From IMG/VR virus record IMGVR_UViG_3300027917_000036: DNA of 20,000 nucleotides. The stretch is one strand, 5' to 3'. Below the pieces are notes generated by a model, which saw only the letters and a program-made list of their open reading frames with translations, had not been told where the DNA came from and did no database searches. The DNA comes from an uncultured virus (IMG/VR IMGVR_UViG_3300027917_000036) (Duplodnaviria; Heunggongvirae; Uroviricota; Caudoviricetes). Below are positions 1 to 13,327 of this stretch, one piece after another (positions within the stretch are counted from its first letter, which is position 1; each line of letters begins with the position of its first letter). The position numbers and the translations under genes are program-made.

Positions 1-108
1 AAAGCCATCTTTGATTTTCTTAAGATAACTTTTTGCGTAACTGATAAAAGTTGGTTGGCAATAATCAACAATCTGTCCAATGAGTTGAGTTGTCAGGTTA
101 ATACCCAT
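1..108 (-). CDS. Hypothetical protein, 5' part only (MGINLTTQLIGQIVDYCQPTF...), runs off the window
   Basis: ATG at 108 preceded by SD AAGGAGGAAA on the - strand; frame open to position 1; not in the ORF track. Confidence 0.65.
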   Translation of the reverse strand, partial: MGINLTTQLIGQIVDYCQPTFISYAKSYLKKIKDGF

Positions 109-139
109 AACGCTTTCCTCCTTTAAATCTAAATAGTTT

Positions 140-205
140 GTGACTGCCATCATCAGTACCTCGCCGTCACACGAGGCAGACGGTGCCCAAGGGCACCGTT
201 TCGGC
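140..205 (-). ncRNA. Type II hammerhead ribozyme HH1
   Basis: Minus strand reads GCC GAAAC GGUGCC-cuug-GGCACC GUC^ UGCCUCG-ugugacgg-CGAGGUA CUGAUGA U GGC A GUCAC. Loop I GUGAC pairs with tail GUCAC. Predicted cut between 179 and 178. Confidence 0.93.
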
Positions 206-225
206 TATACTTATTATAACAGTTT

Positions 226-540
226 TTACAGTTTTTCGTCTTTGAACGCGATGGTTCCTAATACTTTCAAGGCCATAGCAACACTATTGTTCAGGCTGAT
301 TTTCCCGACGTATAAGTTATGCTGTTTTCCCTTATATGTTACAAAAATCGTTTCTTCTTTTTGGTCGAAAGGTTTGATCTTATCCAGTGGCGGGAAGATT
401 GTAAGTTCTGGCCTCGTCATTTTGACGAACCATAGATCGAAGGCATCGATAGCCTTCATTTTGCTTGTGAATACTCCCAGGATTTCTCCATCTTCTTTGA
501 TTACCCAAATATCCGTTTGTTGTCTAATGTTCTTTCCCAT
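226..540 (-). CDS. Hypothetical phage protein, 104 aa
   Basis: ORF track; strong SD AAGGAGGGA upstream; flanked by HH2 and HH1. Confidence 0.8.
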   Translation of the reverse strand: MGKNIRQQTDIWVIKEDGEILGVFTSKMKAIDAFDLWFVKMTRPELTIFPPLDKIKPFDQKEETIFVTYKGKQHNLYVGKISLNNSVAMALKVLGTIAFKDEKL

Positions 541-565
541 AATAATCCCTCCTTAATAAATTGTT

Positions 566-631
566 TGGCTACCATCTTCAGCACCACAGCACCACCTGTG
601 GTGGACGACCGCCATTGGCGGTCGTTTCGGC
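566..631 (-). ncRNA. Type II hammerhead ribozyme HH2 (CUGAAGA core)
   Basis: Minus strand reads GCC GAAAC GACCGCC-aau-GGCGGUC GUC^ CACCACAG-guggug-CUGUGGUG CUGAAGA U GGU A GCCA. Loop UGGU pairs with tail GCCA. Cut 604|603. Confidence 0.9.
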
Positions 632-633
632 GA

Positions 634-717
634 TTAAACATACCCGAAAATTGCACGTTTAATTATAACGTAACCTAAAAAACATCCCAGACAAAATAGC
701 AAAATTATACCTAACAT
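634..717 (-). CDS. Small single-pass membrane peptide, 27 aa (MLGIILLFCLGCFLGYVIIKRAIFGYV)
   Basis: ATG at 717 with SD AAGGAGGGG; hydrophobic stretch followed by KR; TAA lies 2 nt before HH2. Confidence 0.65.
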   Translation of the reverse strand: MLGIILLFCLGCFLGYVIIKRAIFGYV

Positions 718-730
718 GACTTCCCCTCCT

Positions 731-1078
731 TTAAGATCGAAGCCCATAGAACGTAACCATATGAAGGGCTTCTAATGTTGCGCCATTTAGTTTACCAAGA
801 TTCCGTTTTAGAGTTTTCCAGTACTCATGGTCCCAACCATAAACATTGTCCTCGGCGAGACGGTTAATAATTCCGTCTACCATGTTGGTTTTTTCCATTG
901 ATGATTTTGGGCTTTGCCGCATGTTAATGCTTTTCTTCATGATTGCCATTGTTTCTACGGCATCATCCTTGTCATCAGTGAAGTACGATTTATCTTCGAT
1001 AACTTTTCCATCTTCGATCCATCGAACTTCATACTCGCCCCATTGTTTTCTTTCGACAAGTTTCAATTGGATCCCCAT
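731..1078 (-). CDS. Hypothetical phage protein, 115 aa
   Basis: ORF track; SD AAGGAGGGA upstream. Confidence 0.8.
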   Translation of the reverse strand: MGIQLKLVERKQWGEYEVRWIEDGKVIEDKSYFTDDKDDAVETMAIMKKSINMRQSPKSSMEKTNMVDGIINRLAEDNVYGWDHEYWKTLKRNLGKLNGATLEALHMVTFYGLRS

Positions 1079-1098
1079 AATTCCCTCCTTGTTTATGA

Positions 1099-1135
1099 TG
1101 CGTTCCAGTAGGACGATAACTACTACTGGAACGCA
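1099..1135. repeat. Perfect 13-bp intergenic hairpin
   Basis: TGCGTTCCAGTAG (1099-1111) / CTACTGGAACGCA (1123-1135), 11-nt loop, between two minus-strand ORFs. Confidence 0.8.
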
Positions 1136-1144
1136 AATGGGCTG

Positions 1145-1417
1145 TTATTTTTTAGGTCTTACATAATCGAAGGTCAGCCATCCCTTGCGATTATCCGGGC
1201 CAGTACGCTGGAATACTCCTTGAGCACCATAATGCAGATTATAGTGTTCAACAAGTTCCTGGAGGAGGTCGTCGGTAAAGATATAATACCCTGCCTCAAG
1301 GAATTTTAATTCCTCTTCGGTTGACAGGGGATTAAACCGTTTTGCAATTACTCTGGTCACTGCGTTCTTATCGTCGTCAATTCCCAGAACTTTTGCTACC
1401 CATACCCGTTTTCCCAT
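1145..1417 (-). CDS. Hypothetical phage protein, 90 aa (MGKRVWVAK...)
   Basis: Start moved from the track's 1474, which lies inside HH3, to ATG 1417, which has SD AAGGAGGAG. Confidence 0.8.
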   Translation of the reverse strand: MGKRVWVAKVLGIDDDKNAVTRVIAKRFNPLSTEEELKFLEAGYYIFTDDLLQELVEHYNLHYGAQGVFQRTGPDNRKGWLTFDYVRPKK

Positions 1418-1441
1418 GGTACTCCTCCTTTCAAATGAGGA

Positions 1442-1508
1442 ACCTGCCTCATCAGCACGTGGAGGTAATCCCACGTGGACTATTCACCCGGAGGTGAATA
1501 GTTTCGGC
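1442..1508 (-). ncRNA. Type II hammerhead ribozyme HH3
   Basis: Minus strand reads GCC GAAAC UAUUCACC-uccg-GGUGAAUA GUC^ CACGUGG-gauuaccu-CCACGUG CUGAUGA GGC AGGU. Loop ACCU pairs with tail AGGU. Cut 1478|1477. Confidence 0.94.
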
Positions 1509-1510
1509 GT

Positions 1511-1681
1511 TTAATTGTTATCCTCAGCCCTGCGTTTCCAGAAACGCACATTCGCATCGGCGTCTTTGCAACGTCGGGCCCAGCGTACCACAGCAGCCTT
1601 AGATTTTGACTGTTCAACCTTTTTAGCACAAAAGGCACGCTTTTCTTCCCAGAACTTAACATTCGCTTCTGCAGTGTTCAT
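1511..1681 (-). CDS. Hypothetical 56-aa protein with an internal repeat (AEANVKFW / ADANVRFW)
   Basis: ATG 1681 with SD AAGGAG; TAA 2 nt before HH3; below the ORF-track size cutoff. Confidence 0.7.
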   Translation of the reverse strand: MNTAEANVKFWEEKRAFCAKKVEQSKSKAAVVRWARRCKDADANVRFWKRRAEDNN

Positions 1682-1693
1682 AGCTAAACTCCT

Positions 1694-1963
1694 TTAATCG
1701 TTGATACAACTTCTCACTTTGTGATCAATGACACGCCAGCCAAAAGAAGCCCATCGCCCTTCAGTTGGTTTCCATCCTTTGCTGGCAATAGCGGATATAG
1801 TCGCTTTTCTTGGCTCCAAATATTCAGGATCCGTATGATCCATCATAATTGCGAAAACGTCCTCTGAATAAGTTGGCCAACAACTGTTATACCGCAACAT
1901 ATCCACAGGAAATATACCGCTGCCTTCAACTATAAATCTGTGCATAAACATTTTTGTTGCCAT
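1694..1963 (-). CDS. Hypothetical phage protein, 89 aa
   Basis: ORF track; SD AAGGAGGGA. Confidence 0.8.
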   Translation of the reverse strand: MATKMFMHRFIVEGSGIFPVDMLRYNSCWPTYSEDVFAIMMDHTDPEYLEPRKATISAIASKGWKPTEGRWASFGWRVIDHKVRSCIND

Positions 1964-1993
1964 AATAAATCCCTCCTTGTGATAAATCGATTT

Positions 1994-2058
1994 TGAGCCA
2001 CCTCATCGGCGCATGGAGCTCATCTCATGCGGACAGGGACCGAAGCCCCTGTTTCGGC
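1994..2058 (-). ncRNA. Type II hammerhead ribozyme HH4 (CCGAUGA core)
   Basis: Minus strand reads GCC GAAAC AGGGGC-uucg-GUCCCU GUC^ CGCAUG-agaugagcuc-CAUGCG CCGAUGA GGU GGCUCA. Loop UGAGCU pairs with tail GGCUCA. Cut 2032|2031. Confidence 0.88.
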
Positions 2059-2060
2059 AT

Positions 2061-2261
2061 TTAGTGAACAGTGTAACCTCTGTTCTTTAGGATTGTGTGC
2101 CAGATACCCAATTTATATGGATTAGTCATCCTTTGGGTACGAAGATTAATATGTTGCATAATCTTCTCATCGCTATCGGCAAATTTCTTCTCAATATTTT
2201 CGAGCCTGAAAATTGCCTTTTCCACTTCCTTTAATGTTCTTTCTGCTGTCATAGTTTTCAT
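2061..2261 (-). CDS. Hypothetical phage protein, 66 aa
   Basis: ORF track; SD AAGGAGGAAA; flanked by HH5 and HH4. Confidence 0.8.
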   Translation of the reverse strand: MKTMTAERTLKEVEKAIFRLENIEKKFADSDEKIMQHINLRTQRMTNPYKLGIWHTILKNRGYTVH

Positions 2262-2285
2262 GATAAGTTTCCTCCTTAAAATATT

Positions 2286-2356
2286 TTGACCTGCCTCATC
2301 GGCAGTACGGCGGTCAATCCGTACTGGACGGGGATCTTAGCGATCCCCGTTTCGGC
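2286..2356 (-). ncRNA. Type II hammerhead ribozyme HH5 (CCGAUGA core)
   Basis: Minus strand reads GCC GAAAC GGGGAUC-gcuaa-GAUCCCC GUC^ CAGUACGG-auugaccg-CCGUACUG CCGAUGA GGC A GGUCAA. Loop UUGACC pairs with tail GGUCAA. Cut 2327|2326. Confidence 0.9.
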
Positions 2357-2358
2357 TC

Positions 2359-2814
2359 TTATGATTTGTTCTCATAAACAAATGGTTCCGCTGTTCTGAC
2401 ACTCCCAAGGTCATCACAGCATACAAATCCTTCAAGATGTTTTGGATGGAGTTTGTAGGGAAGGAACAGCATCCAGACAAGCAAGTCTTCTCGCTTCTCA
2501 AATTCTTTTAAATAGACAAAGACCTTCTCGTCGTCATAGCGGTCTATTAAGTCCATTTCCACTGTTTTATCATCTATAATAATAACAATATCATAAATGT
2601 TATAAGTGGTGAACAGAACGGCTTCGCCAATCATCGGGCTTTCGCTTTCACAGCCAGCATAACATTCCCAGTCCTCTTCGCTAAAGGGCTTGAACATCAT
2701 ATCCTTAAATCGTGGAGTAGAATGTCGAATGTCACGCACCATAGCTGCTATGCGCTTGCCAGATTCCCTAATAGAACCCCAATCTTTGCTTAACTGTTCA
2801 ATTGTTTTTTCCAT
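2359..2814 (-). CDS. Hypothetical acidic phage protein, 151 aa
   Basis: ORF track; SD AAGGAGGGA; flanked by HH6 and HH5. Confidence 0.8.
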   Translation of the reverse strand: MEKTIEQLSKDWGSIRESGKRIAAMVRDIRHSTPRFKDMMFKPFSEEDWECYAGCESESPMIGEAVLFTTYNIYDIVIIIDDKTVEMDLIDRYDDEKVFVYLKEFEKREDLLVWMLFLPYKLHPKHLEGFVCCDDLGSVRTAEPFVYENKS

Positions 2815-2846
2815 CGTAAATCCCTCCTTAAAATAAATTAATATTA

Positions 2847-2913
2847 GACTGCCTCATCGGCGTGAACCCGTCACGGCTCACGGACTGTTACCCCGAAGGG
2901 TAACAGTTTCGGC
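2847..2913 (-). ncRNA. Type II hammerhead ribozyme HH6 (CCGAUGA core)
   Basis: Minus strand reads GCC GAAAC UGUUACCC-uucg-GGGUAACA GUC^ CGUGAGCC-gugacg-GGUUCACG CCGAUGA GGC A GUC. Loop GAC pairs with tail GUC. Cut 2883|2882. Confidence 0.88.
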
Positions 2914-3189
2914 TTATAGGAGGATTTATCGGAGGATTAATGCATCAGCCTGCGATCCTACTGAAATTCGGATCGGTTCTTCCCAAAATTCCAACGGGAT
3001 TCTCTGTTGCGGTTTTCTGGCATCCAAACCCGTGCGCGGTTGGACTAAGATGTTGTGGGGATTTAGAACTGATGGCTCACTTTACCACATGCTTTATCGG
3101 GAAAGGCCTCGCGTCCCATGCCAGACGCGGTCCACGGTTTTATCCATGGCTAATCCTTTCTGGTTTTCGTAAAATTCGATAAGTTTTTA

Positions 3190-4190
3190 TAGTGAAAAAC
3201 CGTTTTAGGAAGGAGCCCTATTTTTTGCACGGCAGGGACAAAACCATACCGGAGGGAAAATCGGGTGGGATAAAACTAAGCTATTCAACGGTTAAAAACG
3301 CTATCTTAAAACCTTATGAGAAGGATAACAAATCCAGAGGTTTTTGTTTTCCCTTGACCGCCCAGCCCGTTATCCTTAGGAACCCAAGGGAGGGAGTCGC
3401 TGGAGCCCGACTCCCTGTATACATTATCGACATTTTTACACAAAAAACAAGGACCTGAGGGCATTTTAAAGGCTAAAAAGGGCCTCCAGAATCCTCCAGA
3501 AGGAAAAAAGGCCCGAAAACGCCTATTTTTACCCCTTCTATACCTAAAAAAGCGCATGTAGGCCGTTTTTCGTCCTCTCTGGACCGATATAAAATGCCCG
3601 AAAACCTAAAATGCCAAAAAAAGTCCTTTTTTAGCTATATTTTAGCTATAAGATAGCTGTTTTCACGATTAAATCTAAGTAAATCAAACTAAAAAATCAA
3701 ACTCAGCCCTTCCCCATTTAGGGCTAAAAAAGCCCTAAAAACGGTTAAAAAGCCTTCCGAAATGCCGCTGCCCTACTTATCGTTTAGTCGCTAAAATAAG
3801 GATGTGAACAGTCCTGAGAGGATCCAGAATGAACAGTCGGGATAGGGCCGTAAAAGGGCTATAGGTTAAAAAAAAGCGCAAACGCTAAAGGGGTGAAAAG
3901 CGTTGCGTTACGTGTTGCACGGTTACGGGTGAAGGGCTGCGTGCGTGGTGGTGGTACAGAGGGATGGGTTTTTTAGGATGAACTCGCGCCACCTTCCCCC
4001 ACGGCCACGGCCTATAGTTTGACGTTAATCCCATGCCGATGTGACCGGACACATCCGGAACATCCTGTATGTGTAAATTATCCTTGTTTATATAGTCTGT
4101 TCAACTTATCATATAGCCTCTTGGAAATCCGTGTATGAACACGGTAAATGGTTATGTGCCTGGATGGCTTATTTTCTAACAGAGGGAGTG
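3190..4190. other. Long divergent, probably non-coding region with many A/T tracts (candidate genome end, pac site or divergent promoters)
   Basis: No ORF with a convincing SD; lies between the leftward small-gene cluster and the terminase small subunit gene; numerous A4-A8 tracts. Confidence 0.5.
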
Positions 4191-4748
4191 ATGCCAAGTC
4201 CCCGAAAATATAACAAGAGTATATCCCGTCGACCGCAAGATAAAAAGCGAAAGAGGAATGCTACGTTCACACGTCTCGCCAGAAAGATTATTTACGAGGC
4301 ACTTGGAGCGCGAATGCCTATTAACAGAGCGACAGAGCTTGCAGGTATTTCGCCTGACGTGTATAGGGACTGGATGGACAAAGGATTATCAGATCCTAAT
4401 AAGTTTCCAGTGCATGCTTGCTTCGTTCGTAAAATCAAGCGTATCCAGGCACAACATGAAAAAGATGCCTTAGATGTTATCAGGGCAGCGCACGAGGGAA
4501 AGTTTGTTATTAAAGAAACTCGCGTTTCCACTGGTACAAAAGGCACGACAATGACAAGGACCACAAAGACTGTTCATCCTAATTGGGGTGCTGCAGCATG
4601 GTTCTTGGAACGTCGATATAAGGATTATCAGATCAACCAAGCTTTAGAACAGAACTTATTAACTCCCCAACAAAAAGCATTAGAAATTAAAATGGCTCTT
4701 GATGCGTTAACAGAAACGGTGCCCAGTAGTCCTAACGGAGAAGAGTAG
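4191..4748 (+). CDS. terS: Terminase small subunit, putative
   Basis: Directly upstream of terL; HTH-like segment (INRATELAGISPDVYRDW) and WGAAAWFLERRY motif; start set at ATG 4191 after GAGGGAG. Confidence 0.75.
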   Translation: MPSPRKYNKSISRRPQDKKRKRNATFTRLARKIIYEALGARMPINRATELAGISPDVYRDWMDKGLSDPNKFPVHACFVRKIKRIQAQHEKDALDVIRAAHEGKFVIKETRVSTGTKGTTMTRTTKTVHPNWGAAAWFLERRYKDYQINQALEQNLLTPQQKALEIKMALDALTETVPSSPNGEE

Positions 4749-9988: not shown

Positions 9989-10035
9989 TGTGTAGTAGTA
10001 AAAAGAAGAAAAAGAGGAAGAAGCGTAAGAAATGA
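9988..10035 (+). CDS. Possible 15-aa poly-basic micropeptide MCSSKKKKKRKKRKK
   Basis: TAATG overlap with the upstream stop and ATGA overlap with the downstream start. Confidence 0.4.
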   Translation: MCSSKKKKKRKKRKK

Positions 10036-12437
10036 TAGAAGCCATTGCAGATTCTGTTAAGAGTGCCGATAAGACGCTTGATCTTTATGAGAAGAAGCAC
10101 CAGAAAAGACTTCTCAAATCAATCCAATCGTTGGAAGATAAGATGGTCGGCCTCTTACAAGATATCAAAACGAAGGATGGTCGCGTTGAAGGCTTGAAAG
10201 TAAATCTTAAGCAAACGCAGGTTATTCATCAAAAGATGATAAGGATCTTTGAGGATACATATGGCGTTGCCGTTAAAGATATTCTTGGGGACTTTCAGGA
10301 TGTGGCGACTATTATCCAGGATAGCTGGGCAGATCTTGGAGAGGCAGTGAATTTTACTGGCGTTGATGTTCAAATGATGAAATCATTGCAAGCACAGACC
10401 AATGCGCAATATGCGCAGTATGGGGTGCAAGCACAGGAAAGGATCGCAGATGCTTTGTATACAGCATCTATTGGAGGTCAGCCTTTTTCTGAACTATTAA
10501 GAACAGTGCGTGGAGTTCTGCGCGGTCATAAGGACGTGCGTGGTAGGCCGATGGAGTCTTATGCCCATCAGCATGCGATGGATAGTGTTAGGAACTTTCA
10601 TAATGATGTGAATATTAAGAAATCTGAAGATCTTGGCATAGAACGATTCTTATATTACGGCAATCTTATTAATACTTCTCGCCAGTTCTGTAGGACAAGA
10701 GCTGGAAAGGTTTATTCTAAAAAGACTATCGAAAGCTGGAATGATATGTCTTGGTCAGGTAAGGCTGGCCCACCGTTGCAATACCGAGGAGGTTACAATT
10801 GCAGGCATCATTGGCGACCTGCCAGAGAGGAATGGTTCACAGATACTGTCGATGACACAGAAACAAGCATATTGCTCGACGATGCTGCAACAGTAGACGA
10901 TCCAGAAGTAACGCGTCTAAGAAAGGATTTAGCCAGTGTTCAAAAGGAGTCTCAGGCAGTGCTGGCAGAAAAGAAACAAGTTGCGGCAAAGCGCAAATCG
11001 ATCAGAGAAGAATTGGCTGCAGCGACGGACCCAAAGGTTAAAAAGGAATTGAGGCAACAGGTTGCAGATTGGCGACAAAAAACAATTAAACTTGAACAGT
11101 TGCAAAAAGCATATCGTGAAAAAACTGTTGAACTACAGGCTGAATTAAAAGAGGCGTTGGCTAAGAGTCGTGGAGTAAAGCCTCCTCCACCGAAGCCAAA
11201 AGTAAAACCGATTCCGGCGAAGCAAGTTATCACTTTAACAGAGGCTGATATCTTGAAGCTTGGCATGAAACAAGAAGAGAAAATTATTAATCTTGGAGAG
11301 GCAATACCTACAAAGGGATTACAAAGGATAAGTGAAAAGGGCAAAAAGACTTTTCAACTCAGAAGGGAATGGCAACAGGCTGAAGATGAACTCTATGCTC
11401 TTGCTGATCAATTGAGCGAAGCATCCCAACGGGAAAATGCCAGACGATGGACATGGGCAGGTAGCTGGGATGAATCTGATAATAAATTGCTTAGAGCTAT
11501 CAATGCTAAGCATCAAGAAGTATTCGAAAGAAAAATGGCTTGGTACAGATCGTTGCCAAGAGAAGATAAATTGTTACAACGAGATAAGACGGTCCGTGAG
11601 ATTTTAGACCAGGCAATGACAACTCAAGGGCGCAGACGATTTAAGAAAGTGAAGGATGGAACTGATCATTTAAGTTATCGTATGCTTAATGAATTGCAAC
11701 GTCATGAGATGAAAATTAATTGGCAACCAGGAAGGGCTTGCTTCCGATCGTCAGAAGGCGCAATATACCTTGCTGATGCAGACTATTATGATGTTGTGGC
11801 CCATGAGCTGAGTCATGCAATAGATTCTTTGATGGGTTCTAACTTTAATGGTAATTGGGCAAGGACAGGTTTGGCTTGGAAAAACAATAATGTTTTTGTG
11901 AAGCCTGAAATGCGAGATAATCTTAGAGCATGGTTTAAAAGACAAGATAATAAAGGTCTTGGCACTTATACAAACGGTGATGGTAAATATTTTAAAGGTC
12001 AATGGATACATAACTATGAAGGTCGTTTGTATGAAGGCCGTTGGAATTATATCCATGCTACTGGGGAAGAAGTTAAACAAATGAGAGGCATTGCTCAGGA
12101 ATGGTGGGCAATGAATATTCAGCGTTACAGCAAAGCAATAAGGAAAAGTACGAAAGCGTTTGCGGATGATGTTGCTACATATACTAATGCTCTTGAAGAG
12201 GCCAAATCGCAGTTGGATAATGCTTTGGCTACTAAACAATCCAAAACTACTATTCAAGCATTAGAAGCTGATATTCGTAGTATTCAGGCATCGCTGAATA
12301 TAACGTATGAAAAGGATGTTGTTGGTTACATAGAAGATTATCTCGTTACACATACGGACTGGAGAAAAGTTAAAAAGATGTACCCGGAGTTTGCAGAGTT
12401 TATTGAAGAATTTCATAAGACAATTACGAGGACATAA
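10032..12437 (+). CDS. MuF / SPP1 gp7-like minor head protein with coiled-coil linker and C-terminal HEXXH metallopeptidase-like domain
   Basis: Follows the portal; SRQFC...GGYNCRHHW minor-capsid motif near residues 215-265; VVAHELSHAID with distal QEWWA. Confidence 0.85.
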   Translation: MIEAIADSVKSADKTLDLYEKKHQKRLLKSIQSLEDKMVGLLQDIKTKDGRVEGLKVNLKQTQVIHQKMIRIFEDTYGVAVKDILGDFQDVATIIQDSWADLGEAVNFTGVDVQMMKSLQAQTNAQYAQYGVQAQERIADALYTASIGGQPFSELLRTVRGVLRGHKDVRGRPMESYAHQHAMDSVRNFHNDVNIKKSEDLGIERFLYYGNLINTSRQFCRTRAGKVYSKKTIESWNDMSWSGKAGPPLQYRGGYNCRHHWRPAREEWFTDTVDDTETSILLDDAATVDDPEVTRLRKDLASVQKESQAVLAEKKQVAAKRKSIREELAAATDPKVKKELRQQVADWRQKTIKLEQLQKAYREKTVELQAELKEALAKSRGVKPPPPKPKVKPIPAKQVITLTEADILKLGMKQEEKIINLGEAIPTKGLQRISEKGKKTFQLRREWQQAEDELYALADQLSEASQRENARRWTWAGSWDESDNKLLRAINAKHQEVFERKMAWYRSLPREDKLLQRDKTVREILDQAMTTQGRRRFKKVKDGTDHLSYRMLNELQRHEMKINWQPGRACFRSSEGAIYLADADYYDVVAHELSHAIDSLMGSNFNGNWARTGLAWKNNNVFVKPEMRDNLRAWFKRQDNKGLGTYTNGDGKYFKGQWIHNYEGRLYEGRWNYIHATGEEVKQMRGIAQEWWAMNIQRYSKAIRKSTKAFADDVATYTNALEEAKSQLDNALATKQSKTTIQALEADIRSIQASLNITYEKDVVGYIEDYLVTHTDWRKVKKMYPEFAEFIEEFHKTITRT

Positions 12438-12898: not shown

Positions 12899-13327
12899 AT
12901 GCAATATCAACCAATGTATTTTAGGATAGAAGAATTAGTTTCCCCTGAGATTATTAACACTCCACCGTTCGATAGCAGAAAGGATTTGTTGTGGTGGTTG
13001 TTCGATGATCGTATACTTATCACAGCAGATCGCTTGCGTGGGCGTTATGGCAGAATGCTATGTAACACTTGGTTGTGGGGAGGATCCACAAAGTATCGTG
13101 GATTCAGGCCTTCCGGTTGTCCTGTTGGTTCTAAGTGGAGCCAGCATAAGTTCGGTCGCGCTCTTGATCTTGTTCCATTAGATACTGGAGTAGATGATAT
13201 TAGAGCGAATATTATTAATGGGGAAGATCGGGAGGCCCATAAATATGTAACGGCTATTGAGTTGAAGGTATCATGGTTGCATCTCGATTGCCGAAATAAT
13301 ACAGGACTATTGAAGTTCAGTCCTTAG
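12899..13327 (+). CDS. Peptidase M15-family Zn peptidase (peptidoglycan hydrolase / endolysin-like)
   Basis: GFR...SQHKFGRALD...WLHLD matches the SxHxxGxAxD and HxD zinc motifs. Confidence 0.85.
   Translation: MQYQPMYFRIEELVSPEIINTPPFDSRKDLLWWLFDDRILITADRLRGRYGRMLCNTWLWGGSTKYRGFRPSGCPVGSKWSQHKFGRALDLVPLDTGVDDIRANIINGEDREAHKYVTAIELKVSWLHLDCRNNTGLLKFSP

What the first reader, a model, noticed from the sequence alone, without database searches (positions are those of the whole stretch)
140..2913. Six type II hammerhead ribozymes punctuate a phage small-gene operon
Seen: six intergenic minus-strand elements (140-205, 566-631, 1442-1508, 1994-2058, 2286-2356, 2847-2913) share the layout GCC-GAAAC-[stem III]-GUC-[stem I]-CYGAWGA-(U)GGY-[tail pairing with loop I]. 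Stems I, III and the pseudoknot differ in sequence between copies yet stay paired, so the copies show covariation within one genome. All are sense to the ORFs and lie just upstream of a strong SD. Known: this is the hammerhead core with its ends in stem II (type II), a class reported in bacteria and phages. Inference: the polycistronic, probably early, mRNA cuts itself without RNases into units of 556, 295, 554, 874 and 425 nt carrying 1, 1, 2, 3 and 1 ORFs. Each unit would have a 5'-OH hairpin end and a 3' hairpin with a cyclic phosphate. I am not aware of such dense gene-by-gene ribozyme punctuation as a described phage expression system.
Basis: partly seen in the sequence, partly recalled or inferred. 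Interest (0 to 1): 0.95.

Follow-up and report, generated by a model that had tools for sequence, protein, structure and literature searches.

The report
Hammerhead ribozyme array in phage operon
Six self-cutting hammerhead RNA motifs really do sit between the small genes of one phage operon, but this layout has been known in phages since 2011, so it is a clean new example whose one unusual point is that half the copies carry a rare single-letter change in the catalytic core.

Summary
Six minus-strand type II hammerhead motifs lie at the stated coordinates, and all six predicted cut sites were reproduced. A seventh begins just past the window's left edge.

Rfam RF02276 (threshold 37 bits):
- HH4, HH5 and HH6 pass in a whole-window scan.
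- HH1 passes at 43.2 bits, but only when scanned alone.
- HH2 scores 30.2 bits, below threshold.
- HH3 gets no hit.

A model built from HH1 and HH4 finds the other four at E 1e-10 to 3e-8 and nothing else in 20 kb. Stems I and III covary strongly.

HH1-3 carry CCGAUGA, the U4C core variant. In IMG/VR this variant is common and well stemmed. Other changes at positions 4, 5 and 6 are almost absent.

The novelty claim fails. Perreault et al. 2011 described hammerhead clusters flanking single prophage genes and proposed transcript processing. Arrays of 6-8 with the same geometry occur in unrelated IMG/VR contigs. This scan has already noted such arrays on other DNA, in at least 74 genomes.

Cleavage and early expression remain untested because no RNA data exist.

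The parts
2843..2914 (-). HH1: type II hammerhead with U4C core (CCGAUGA). Stem III 10 bp, stem I 8 bp, stem II GCC/GGC. Cut predicted at 2883|2882. Lies upstream of the first ORF.
   Evidence: parse. Rfam 43.2 bits (at or above 37) only when scanned alone. Training sequence of R1. Loop I/tail run is only 3 bp.
2285..2357 (-). HH2: type II hammerhead with U4C core. Stem III 9 bp, stem I 8 bp. Cut predicted at 2327|2326.
   Evidence: R1 43.2 bits, E 1.5e-9. Rfam 30.2 bits, below gathering. 6-bp pseudoknot, p 0.003. The minimum-energy fold is the full three-way junction.
1990..2061 (-). HH3: type II hammerhead with U4C core. Stem III 8 bp, stem I 6 bp plus an irregular top, stem II with a G-U pair. 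Cut predicted at 2032|2031.
   Evidence: R1 45.9 bits, E 2.8e-10. No Rfam hit. 6-bp pseudoknot, p 0.006. Fold z-score only -1.77.
1438..1509 (-). HH4: canonical type II hammerhead (CUGAUGA). Cut predicted at 1478|1477.
   Evidence: Rfam 37.3 bits against gathering 37.. Training sequence of R1.
563..632 (-). HH5: canonical core with A at N7 (CUGAAGA) and an extra U after A9. Cut predicted at 604|603.
   Evidence: Rfam 52.5 bits. R1 38.3 bits..
138..206 (-). HH6: canonical core with an extra U after A9. Cut predicted at 179|178.
   Evidence: Rfam 62.2 bits. R1 47.5 bits. 6-bp pseudoknot, p 0.002.
2359..2814 (-). ORF A, 151 aa, unknown function. Unit 1.
   Evidence: ATG with AAGGAGG. No PHROG or Pfam hit. 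No IMG/VR relative.
2061..2261 (-). ORF B, 66 aa, unknown function. Unit 2.
1511..1963 (-). ORF C (89 aa, 1694-1963) and ORF D (56 aa, 1511-1681), separated by a 12-nt gap with no ribozyme. Unit 3.
   Evidence: ORF C matches phrog_11674, unknown function, E 3.7e-12. It has 35-41% identical homologues in 37 phage records.
634..1417 (-). ORF E (90 aa, 1145-1417), ORF F (115 aa, 731-1078) and ORF G (27 aa, hydrophobic, 634-717). Unit 4.
   Evidence: ORF F matches phrog_7884, unknown function.
226..540 (-). ORF H, 104 aa, unknown function. Unit 5.
1..108 (-). Start of ORF I. It is 104 aa in the near-identical record G001, where a seventh hammerhead follows it outside the window.
   Evidence: L004 1180-1491; seventh hammerhead at L004 1486-1546, cut by the contig end.
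1099..1135 (-). 13-bp hairpin in the 66-nt E-F gap, the only long gap in the operon without a hammerhead.
   Evidence: -22.9 kcal/mol, z -4.37. No Rfam family. Unique in the window.
2914..2937 (-). Tandem 12-nt repeat in the leader immediately 5' of HH1. Each copy holds CCUCC, which is complementary to the SD of ORF A.
   Evidence: D8. (the minimum-energy fold pairs it with the SD). (duplex -14.7 kcal/mol against -3.2 to -9.2 for the other five).

Best explanation
The minus-strand operon of an uncultured tailed phage carries at least seven type II hammerhead self-cleaving ribozymes, co-transcribed with nine or more small genes of unknown function. The sequence was held in marine-sediment metagenome runs.

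**Layout (shown).** Each ribozyme starts 2 nt after a stop codon in four of the five cases with an upstream ORF. Each ends 28-37 nt before the next ATG.

**Cleavage products (inferred from established hammerhead chemistry, not shown here).** Each ribozyme cuts after C17. The upstream RNA would end in the stem III hairpin with a 2',3'-cyclic phosphate. The downstream RNA would begin with a 5'-OH directly at the base of the stem I hairpin, 60-70 nt ahead of the next start codon.

**Result (inferred).** One long transcript would become units of 1-3 genes, each capped by a hairpin at both ends. This would uncouple the stability and translation of neighbouring genes.

**Core variants.** HH4-6 have the canonical core. 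HH1-3 have U4C, which most likely cleaves more slowly but is a maintained natural state and not decay.
For: **Motif identity.**
- Rfam RF02276 is at or above gathering for 4 of 6.
- A model trained on two copies finds the other four at E 1e-10 to 3e-8 and nothing else in 40 kb of both strands.
- Of 13 core positions, all are kept in HH4-6 and 12 in HH1-3.
- 16 of 21 stem pairs covary and 98.4% of cells are paired.
- The minimum-energy fold gives the full three-way junction for 4 of 6, and stems I and III for all six.

**Placement.** All copies are on the coding strand, in gaps between ORFs that have strong ribosome-binding sites.

**Phage context.** The plus strand encodes terminase, portal, scaffold, major head, tail and tape-measure proteins.

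**The same architecture elsewhere.**
- In six unrelated IMG/VR loci, 30 of 34 hammerheads have an ORF stop within 25 nt upstream.
- 25 of 34 have an ORF start within 60 nt downstream.

**U4C is maintained.**
- The same count was 0 of 7 for G5A, 0 of 13 for A6G and 1 of 25 for U4A/U4G, all from complete scans.
- C4 and U4 copies do not differ in stem or pseudoknot length (61 against 85 copies).

**Literature.** Triple prophage arrays cleave in vitro at the expected sizes, and one cleaves in E. coli (Perreault 2011, section 6). Three type II hammerheads are active in vivo in Desulfovibrio (PMC8782182, passages).
Against: - No RNA data exist for this phage, so neither transcription of the operon as one RNA nor any cleavage is shown.
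- U4C 'considerably decreases activity in vitro' (Perreault 2011 discussion).
- HH2 is below Rfam's threshold and HH3 is not detected.
- HH3 folds little better than shuffles (z -1.77).
- HH1 has no significant pseudoknot.
- In HH1 and HH3 the minimum-energy fold replaces stem II with a small local hairpin, GCC/GGC or CC/GG around GAUGA.
- The only relative available, G001, is the same phage (1 mismatch in 3009 bases). There is therefore no between-genome conservation test of these particular copies.
- The biological benefit of processing is unproven in the field (review PMC6765202, passages).
Confidence: 0.75

Rival explanations
1. Only the canonical copies (HH4-7) cleave. The three U4C copies (HH1-3) are catalytically dead or too slow to matter. 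They persist as structured intergenic spacers, that is, hairpins that insulate or stabilise the message.
For: - U4C considerably lowers in vitro activity (Perreault 2011 discussion).
- The founding alignments disqualified any core mutation unless activity was measured (methods passage).
- Rfam scores are weak or absent for HH2 and HH3.
- HH1 lacks a significant pseudoknot.
- A competing local hairpin appears in HH1 and HH3.
Against: - If these copies were decaying, other core positions should mutate too. All 12 other core positions are intact in each.
- In IMG/VR, U4C is the only frequent well-stemmed variant: 62 copies against 0, 0 and 1 for the controls.
- U4C copies have stems and pseudoknots equal to U4 copies.
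- A U4C viroid hammerhead suffices in vivo (Perreault 2011).
Confidence: 0.2
2. The ribozymes chiefly mark the borders of exchangeable gene cassettes. Their conserved core segments serve as short recombination sites through which phages swap small genes, and RNA cleavage is secondary.
For: - Gene content next to hammerheads is not constant (Perreault 2011).
- ORF C homologues in Erythrobacter phage XM05 and Acidovorax phage ACP17 have no hammerhead within 2.5 kb.
- ORF A has no relative in IMG/VR.
- An earlier scan note (e1-6068284) reports gain and loss of genes at such junctions.
Against: - The copies share only about 8 nt and about 12 nt of identical sequence. Stems I and III are entirely different between copies, which gives little homology for recombination.
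- Conservation follows the catalytic core and base pairing, as expected for an RNA function.
- No related genome was available to show cassette exchange here.
Confidence: 0.08
3. Successive cleavage and ligation by neighbouring hammerheads yields circular or spliced RNAs instead of linear mRNAs.
For: Hammerheads can ligate. Perreault 2011 raise this possibility for clusters.
Against: The same authors report that they could detect neither product (data not shown there). No joints could be examined here because no RNA run exists.
Confidence: 0.03

Closest known systems
Clustered hammerhead ribozymes flanking single genes or short gene blocks in prophages (Perreault et al. 2011, PLoS Comput Biol, PMC3088659; Clostridium scindens, Azorhizobium caulinodans and Agrobacterium tumefaciens arrays)
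   Same: Several hammerheads lie on the coding strand between small phage genes of varying identity. [quoted passage not shown]
   Different: The arrays tested there were triple. This one has six in 2.8 kb, and at least seven in all. Half of its copies carry U4C, a state those authors' alignments excluded by rule unless activity was shown.
Type II hammerhead ribozyme family, Rfam RF02276
   Same: Stem II is open, stems I and III are hairpins, and the GAAA / GUC / CUGANGA core is present. A loop I to 3'-tail pseudoknot is present in most copies. 4 of 6 reach the gathering score.
   Different: HH2 (30.2 bits) and HH3 (no hit) fall below the family threshold. HH1-3 have C in place of U at core position 4. 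HH5 and HH6 have an extra U after A9, which the Rfam alignments show as an insertion.
Large hammerhead arrays in other uncultured phage contigs (IMG/VR loci L058, L006, L077, L080, L016, L015)
   Same: They hold 3-8 type II hammerheads on one strand within 2-6 kb. Each ribozyme starts 0-3 nt after a stop codon in many cases, and the next start codon lies about 25-38 nt downstream. U4 and C4 cores are mixed.
   Different: The stem sequences and the genes are unrelated. No protein or DNA homology to this operon was found.
Natural U4C hammerhead of a viroid (cited as reference 30 in Perreault 2011)
   Same: The same single core substitution is retained in a biologically functional ribozyme (discussion passage).
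   Different: It is a viroid replication ribozyme and not a DNA-phage mRNA element. I saw only the citing sentence and did not read the original paper.

Membership tests
Type II hammerhead ribozyme (Rfam RF02276) | Covariance-model score at or above the curated gathering score (37 bits) | tested here: inconclusive
   Met for HH6 (62.2), HH5 (52.5), HH4 (37.3) and HH1 (43.2, seen only on a 91-base stretch). Not met for HH2 (30.2) or HH3 (no hit). That is 4 of 6.
Type II hammerhead ribozyme (Rfam RF02276) | Three-helix junction with hairpin-closed stems I and III and open stem II | tested here: met
   6 of 6. Stem III is 8-10 bp, stem I 6-8 bp and stem II 3-4 bp. 98.4% of cells are paired and 16 of 21 pairs covary.
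Type II hammerhead ribozyme (Rfam RF02276) | Consensus catalytic core C3 U4 G5 A6 N7 G8 A9, G12 A13 A14, A15.1-U16.1, H17 (as defined in Perreault 2011 methods) | tested here: inconclusive
   Fully met in HH4, HH5 and HH6. HH1, HH2 and HH3 have C at position 4 and keep the other 12 positions. By the strict 2011 rule these three would be disqualified unless shown to be active. U4C is a known active natural variant and is common in stemmed IMG/VR motifs.
Type II hammerhead ribozyme (Rfam RF02276) | Pseudoknot of 4 or more bp between loop I and the tail 3' of stem II (present in a majority of members, not all) | tested here: inconclusive
   Runs of 6, 6 and 6 bp in HH2, HH3 and HH6 (p <= 0.006). 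5 bp in HH4 (p 0.14), 4 bp in HH5 (p 0.5) and 3 bp in HH1 (not significant).
Type II hammerhead ribozyme (Rfam RF02276) | Site-specific self-cleavage after H17 giving 2',3'-cyclic phosphate and 5'-OH ends | not testable with these tools
   No RNA run holds the sequence. This needs in vitro transcription or end-specific RNA-seq.
Clustered phage/prophage hammerhead arrays (Perreault 2011) | Several hammerheads close together on the coding strand, flanking single genes or short gene blocks in a phage genome | tested here: met
   Six lie in 2.8 kb between 1-3-gene blocks, with a seventh in G001. The phage structural module is adjacent.

The most novel reading that the evidence does not exclude
Position 4 of the phage type II hammerhead core is naturally a pyrimidine (Y4) and not a fixed U. 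On this reading the C4 state is a selected, slower 'gear'.

- **Graded processing.** The three promoter-proximal ribozymes (HH1-3) would be C4 and the distal ones U4, so the transcript would be cut at graded rates. This would set different lifetimes or timing for the gene units.
- **Unmasking the first gene.** Cleavage by HH1 would sever a leader carrying two CCUCC anti-SD repeats from the SD of the first gene and so unmask its translation.

The evidence does not exclude this reading. It does not show any rate difference. In other arrays the C4 copies show no consistent position.
Probability: 0.12. Interest if true: 0.55.

Novelty: new member of a known kind. Interest (0 to 1): 0.3.

Why it matters
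**Why the locus is useful.** The biological role of the many bacterial and phage self-cleaving ribozymes is still called largely elusive (review PMC6765202). A compact, regular array offers a convenient natural test bed for whether ribozyme punctuation controls mRNA stability and translation. Here the array has six or seven ribozymes, each placed from stop codon to ribosome-binding site, with two core states side by side. As a kind of system it is not new.

**U4C may be under-counted.**
- U4C is frequent and well maintained in phage hammerheads, while other changes at positions 4-6 are nearly absent.
- Consensus-based searches and Rfam's speed filters therefore probably under-count these ribozymes. 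HH1 scores 43.2 bits but was invisible in normal scans.
- The textbook 'invariant U4' may need softening for this class.

Tried and rejected
**Relatives of the operon.**
- ORF A has no relative in IMG/VR.
- blastn of window 1-3300 against 50,697 phage records gave no match.
- The large terminase subunit gave one relative at 29% identity on a 4-kb contig, which I did not follow.
- ORF F had no tblastn match in phages.
- G001 turned out to be the same phage, so it gives no comparative signal.

**Expression.** No RNA holder was listed for the stretch. Laying the three DNA runs (contigs only) added nothing on the ribozymes beyond one low-depth 2-nt deletion at 191.

**Promoters and terminators.** The consensus scan of 1-4300 gave counts no higher than shuffles (10 against 8.5, and 6 against 4.5). 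The operon's start and end remain unmapped.

**Extra candidate inside ORF F (1064..969, minus strand).** Rejected as a chance match. Stem II is only U-A/U-A, stem III has three G-U pairs, stem I has a 41-nt loop, and neither Rfam nor R1 reported a hammerhead hit there.

**E-F hairpin.** It matches no Rfam family.

**Gene function.** There were no Pfam hits above the cut-offs for 10 small proteins. PHROG hits went only to families of unknown function.

**Positional rule for C4 copies.** Not supported. C4 copies sit at varied positions in other arrays, although those loci were centred on C4 hits.

**Compensation for U4C.** I tested whether longer stems or pseudoknots offset U4C and found no difference.

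Full report
**What is there.** On the minus strand between 138 and 2914 lie six elements with the layout GCC / GAA / hairpin / GUC / hairpin / CYGAWGA / (U) / GGY.
- A script parse gives stem III of 8-10 bp and stem I of 6-8 bp.
- The unit lengths (556, 295, 554, 874, 425 nt) and ORF counts (1, 1, 2, 3, 1) are also right.
- A near-identical virus record, G001, differs by 1 mismatch in 3009 aligned bases. It continues 259 bases past the window's left end and shows a seventh hammerhead after ORF I, cut off by the contig end. The array therefore has at least seven members.

**Is it more than chance?**
- A regex-plus-stem scan of both strands of the 20-kb window gives seven hits, all on the minus strand, and none in 200 shuffles. 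The seventh hit, inside ORF F, is weak and is rejected below.
- Rfam's Hammerhead_II model (gathering score 37 bits) reports HH6 at 62.2, HH5 at 52.5 and HH4 at 37.3 bits in the whole-window scan.
- HH1-3 were absent from that scan and from a 1-kb scan at E <= 10.
- Scanned on stretches of about 90 bases, HH1 scores 43.2 bits, above threshold. HH2 scores 30.2 bits, E 6.4e-5. HH3 gets no hit.
- HH1 was therefore lost to Rfam's speed filters and not to its score.
- A covariance model, R1, built from HH1 and HH4 alone and run without filters, finds the other four at 38.3-47.5 bits (E 1e-10 to 3e-8). Nothing else in the window scores above 14.3 bits.

**Structure.**
- On the model-fitted alignment of the six copies, 98.4% of 123 cells form standard pairs and 16 of 21 pairs change on both sides. 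No shuffle of 500 reaches the observed values, and sliding the partners drops pairing to 30-46%. The alignment was fitted to the structure, which favours pairing. The stems share almost no sequence, so the covariation is real.
- Minimum-energy folding returns the complete three-way junction for HH2, HH4, HH5 and HH6, and stems I and III for all six. The z-scores run from -4.97 to -1.77, with HH3 the weakest.
- The loop I/tail pseudoknot is clear in three copies: 6 bp in HH2, HH3 and HH6, each p <= 0.006. It is marginal in HH4 (5 bp) and HH5 (4 bp) and absent in HH1 (3 bp).

**Context.**
- The plus strand from 4131 onward encodes the small and large terminase subunits, portal, scaffold, major head protein, neck and tail-terminator proteins, major tail protein and tape measure. 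This is a tailed phage.
- The ribozyme operon runs in the opposite direction, away from a roughly 1.2-kb repeat-rich non-coding stretch.
- Its nine ORFs all start with ATG behind a strong AAGGAGG-type site.
- None has a known function. There are two PHROG families of unknown function and no Pfam hit above cut-off.
- In four of the five cases with an upstream ORF, the ribozyme starts 2 nt after the stop codon. The next ATG follows 28-37 nt after stem II.
- Three junctions have no ribozyme. Two are 12-13-nt gaps. The third is a 66-nt gap holding a 13-bp hairpin that matches no Rfam family.

**The core variant.**
- HH1-3 read CCGAUGA, which is U4C. HH4 and HH6 read CUGAUGA and HH5 reads CUGAAGA.
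- Perreault et al. 2011 note that U4C considerably lowers in vitro activity yet suffices in a viroid (discussion passage).
- Their final alignments disqualified any core mutation unless activity was measured (methods passage).
- I asked whether C4 is decay or a maintained state by scanning IMG/VR with the pattern GCCGAAAC...GUC...C?GAUGAGG and filtering for stems of at least 5 bp:

| Core tested | Scan | Distinct matches | Stemmed |
|---|---|---|---|
| G5A | complete | 7 | 0 |
| A6G | complete | 13 | 0 |
| U4A/U4G | complete | 25 | 1 |

- C4 copies (61) and U4 copies (85) do not differ in stem III, stem I, pseudoknot or loop lengths.
- C4 is therefore a specifically tolerated, well-kept state in phage type II hammerheads. 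Whether it is slower here is not known.
- Only one paper in the searchable library holds both 'hammerhead' and 'U4C'. Other wordings could hide more.

**Is the arrangement new? No.**
- Section 6 of Perreault et al. 2011 (read whole) says that multiple hammerheads often flank individual genes or short gene blocks in prophages. [quoted passage not shown] It also reports that triple arrays cleaved as expected in vitro, and one in E. coli.
- A 2019 review repeats the idea and calls the biology unresolved (passages).
- Three type II hammerheads near phage-like genes were shown active in vivo in Desulfovibrio (passages).
- Among the loci fetched around U4C hits I found arrays by script. Counts are script hits, with model R1 hits in brackets where they differ: eight in L058, eight in L006, seven (six) in L077, four in L080, four in L016 and three in L015. 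R1 made 33 matches in these loci.
- These arrays share the geometry. 30 of 34 have a stop within 25 nt upstream and 25 of 34 have a start within 60 nt downstream.
- This scan's own notes hold 86 findings on such arrays in at least 74 genomes. The follow-up notes shown there place them with the clusters described in 2011.

**Gene identity is not tied to the ribozymes.**
- ORF C has 35-41% identical homologues in 37 phage records.
- The two I fetched, Erythrobacter phage XM05 and Acidovorax phage ACP17, have no hammerhead within 2.5 kb.
- ORF A and ORF F have no relatives in the collections searched.

**Mechanism and what remains inferred.**
- *Shown:* motif identity, strand, placement and covariation.
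- *Inferred from established hammerhead chemistry:* cleavage after C17 leaves a 2',3'-cyclic phosphate on a fragment ending in the stem III hairpin. It leaves a 5'-OH on a fragment that begins with the stem I hairpin, 60-70 nt before the next ATG.
- *Inferred, from my own recall of bacterial mRNA decay and of synthetic ribozyme insulators, and from no call:* such ends would slow 5'-end-dependent and 3'-exonucleolytic decay and would insulate each gene's translation from its neighbours.
- *Not shown:* that the operon is one transcript, that it is early, or that any copy cleaves. No RNA run holds the sequence, and the promoter and terminator scans were uninformative.

**A side observation.**
- Directly 5' of HH1 lies a tandem 12-nt repeat, each copy containing CCUCC.
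- In the minimum-energy fold of the uncut RNA this pairs with the SD of ORF A across the ribozyme.
- The duplex is -14.7 kcal/mol, against -3.2 to -9.2 for the other five junctions.
- Cutting at HH1 would separate the two strands. This is the basis of the bolder reading, and it is untested.

**Verdict.** This is a genuine, regular, fairly large hammerhead array in an uncultured phage. It is a new member of a kind described in 2011. The modest added value is the evidence that U4C is a maintained core state that standard searches under-report.

Noticed in passing
L004 1486-1546 (G001; about 214-259 bases beyond window position 1, minus strand): A seventh type II hammerhead follows ORF I directly after its stop codon. 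It is cut off by the contig end (Rfam 21.5 bits, model positions 8-52). The array therefore extends beyond the window.
   Followed up: partly
window 1099-1135 (-): A 13-bp hairpin with an 11-nt loop (-22.9 kcal/mol, z -4.37) fills the only long ribozyme-free gap of the operon, between ORF E and ORF F. It matches no Rfam family and is unique in the window. It could be an RNase III site or a stabiliser that stands in for a ribozyme.
   Followed up: partly
window 2914-2937 (-): A tandem 12-nt repeat lies immediately 5' of HH1, and each copy contains CCUCC. It is predicted to pair with the SD of ORF A across the ribozyme (duplex -14.7 kcal/mol). None of the other five junctions has such a partner.
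   Followed up: partly
window 2938-4130: About 1.2 kb between the ribozyme operon and the small terminase gene has no convincing ORF. It is rich in A-run/GCCC-type short direct and inverted repeats (families D1-D5, I1-I7). It may be a packaging, origin or divergent-promoter region.
   Followed up: no
window 969-1064 (-), inside ORF F: A hammerhead-like regex match with a canonical CUGAUGA and GAAA. It has only U-A/U-A for stem II, three G-U pairs in stem III and a 41-nt loop I. Neither Rfam nor model R1 reported a hammerhead hit there, so it is probably chance.
   Followed up: yes
window 2851-2862 and 2000-2011 (-), HH1 and HH3: In the U4C copies, G2.1-C3-C4 can pair with the GG(C) of stem II across GAUGA. 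The minimum-energy folds of HH1 and HH3 choose this small hairpin over stem II. It is a possible competing inactive conformer created by the C4 state.
   Followed up: no
window 2843-2914: Method point: Rfam's speed filters hid a 43.2-bit, above-threshold hammerhead in 20-kb and 1-kb scans. It appeared only when a 91-base stretch was scanned. Routine annotation will under-count such copies.
   Followed up: yes
window 10032-12434 (+) and 12899-13324 (+): An 801-aa ORF with no PHROG hit and a 142-aa endolysin-like ORF (phrog_894, E 1.5e-9) sit inside the head-morphogenesis module, between the portal and the scaffold genes.
   Followed up: no
window 191 (HH6 stem III/loop): One low-depth contig of run X2 (depth 2.1 of 10.3) lacks 2 bases here. 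It may be an assembly error or a minor variant in the ribozyme's loop III.
   Followed up: no
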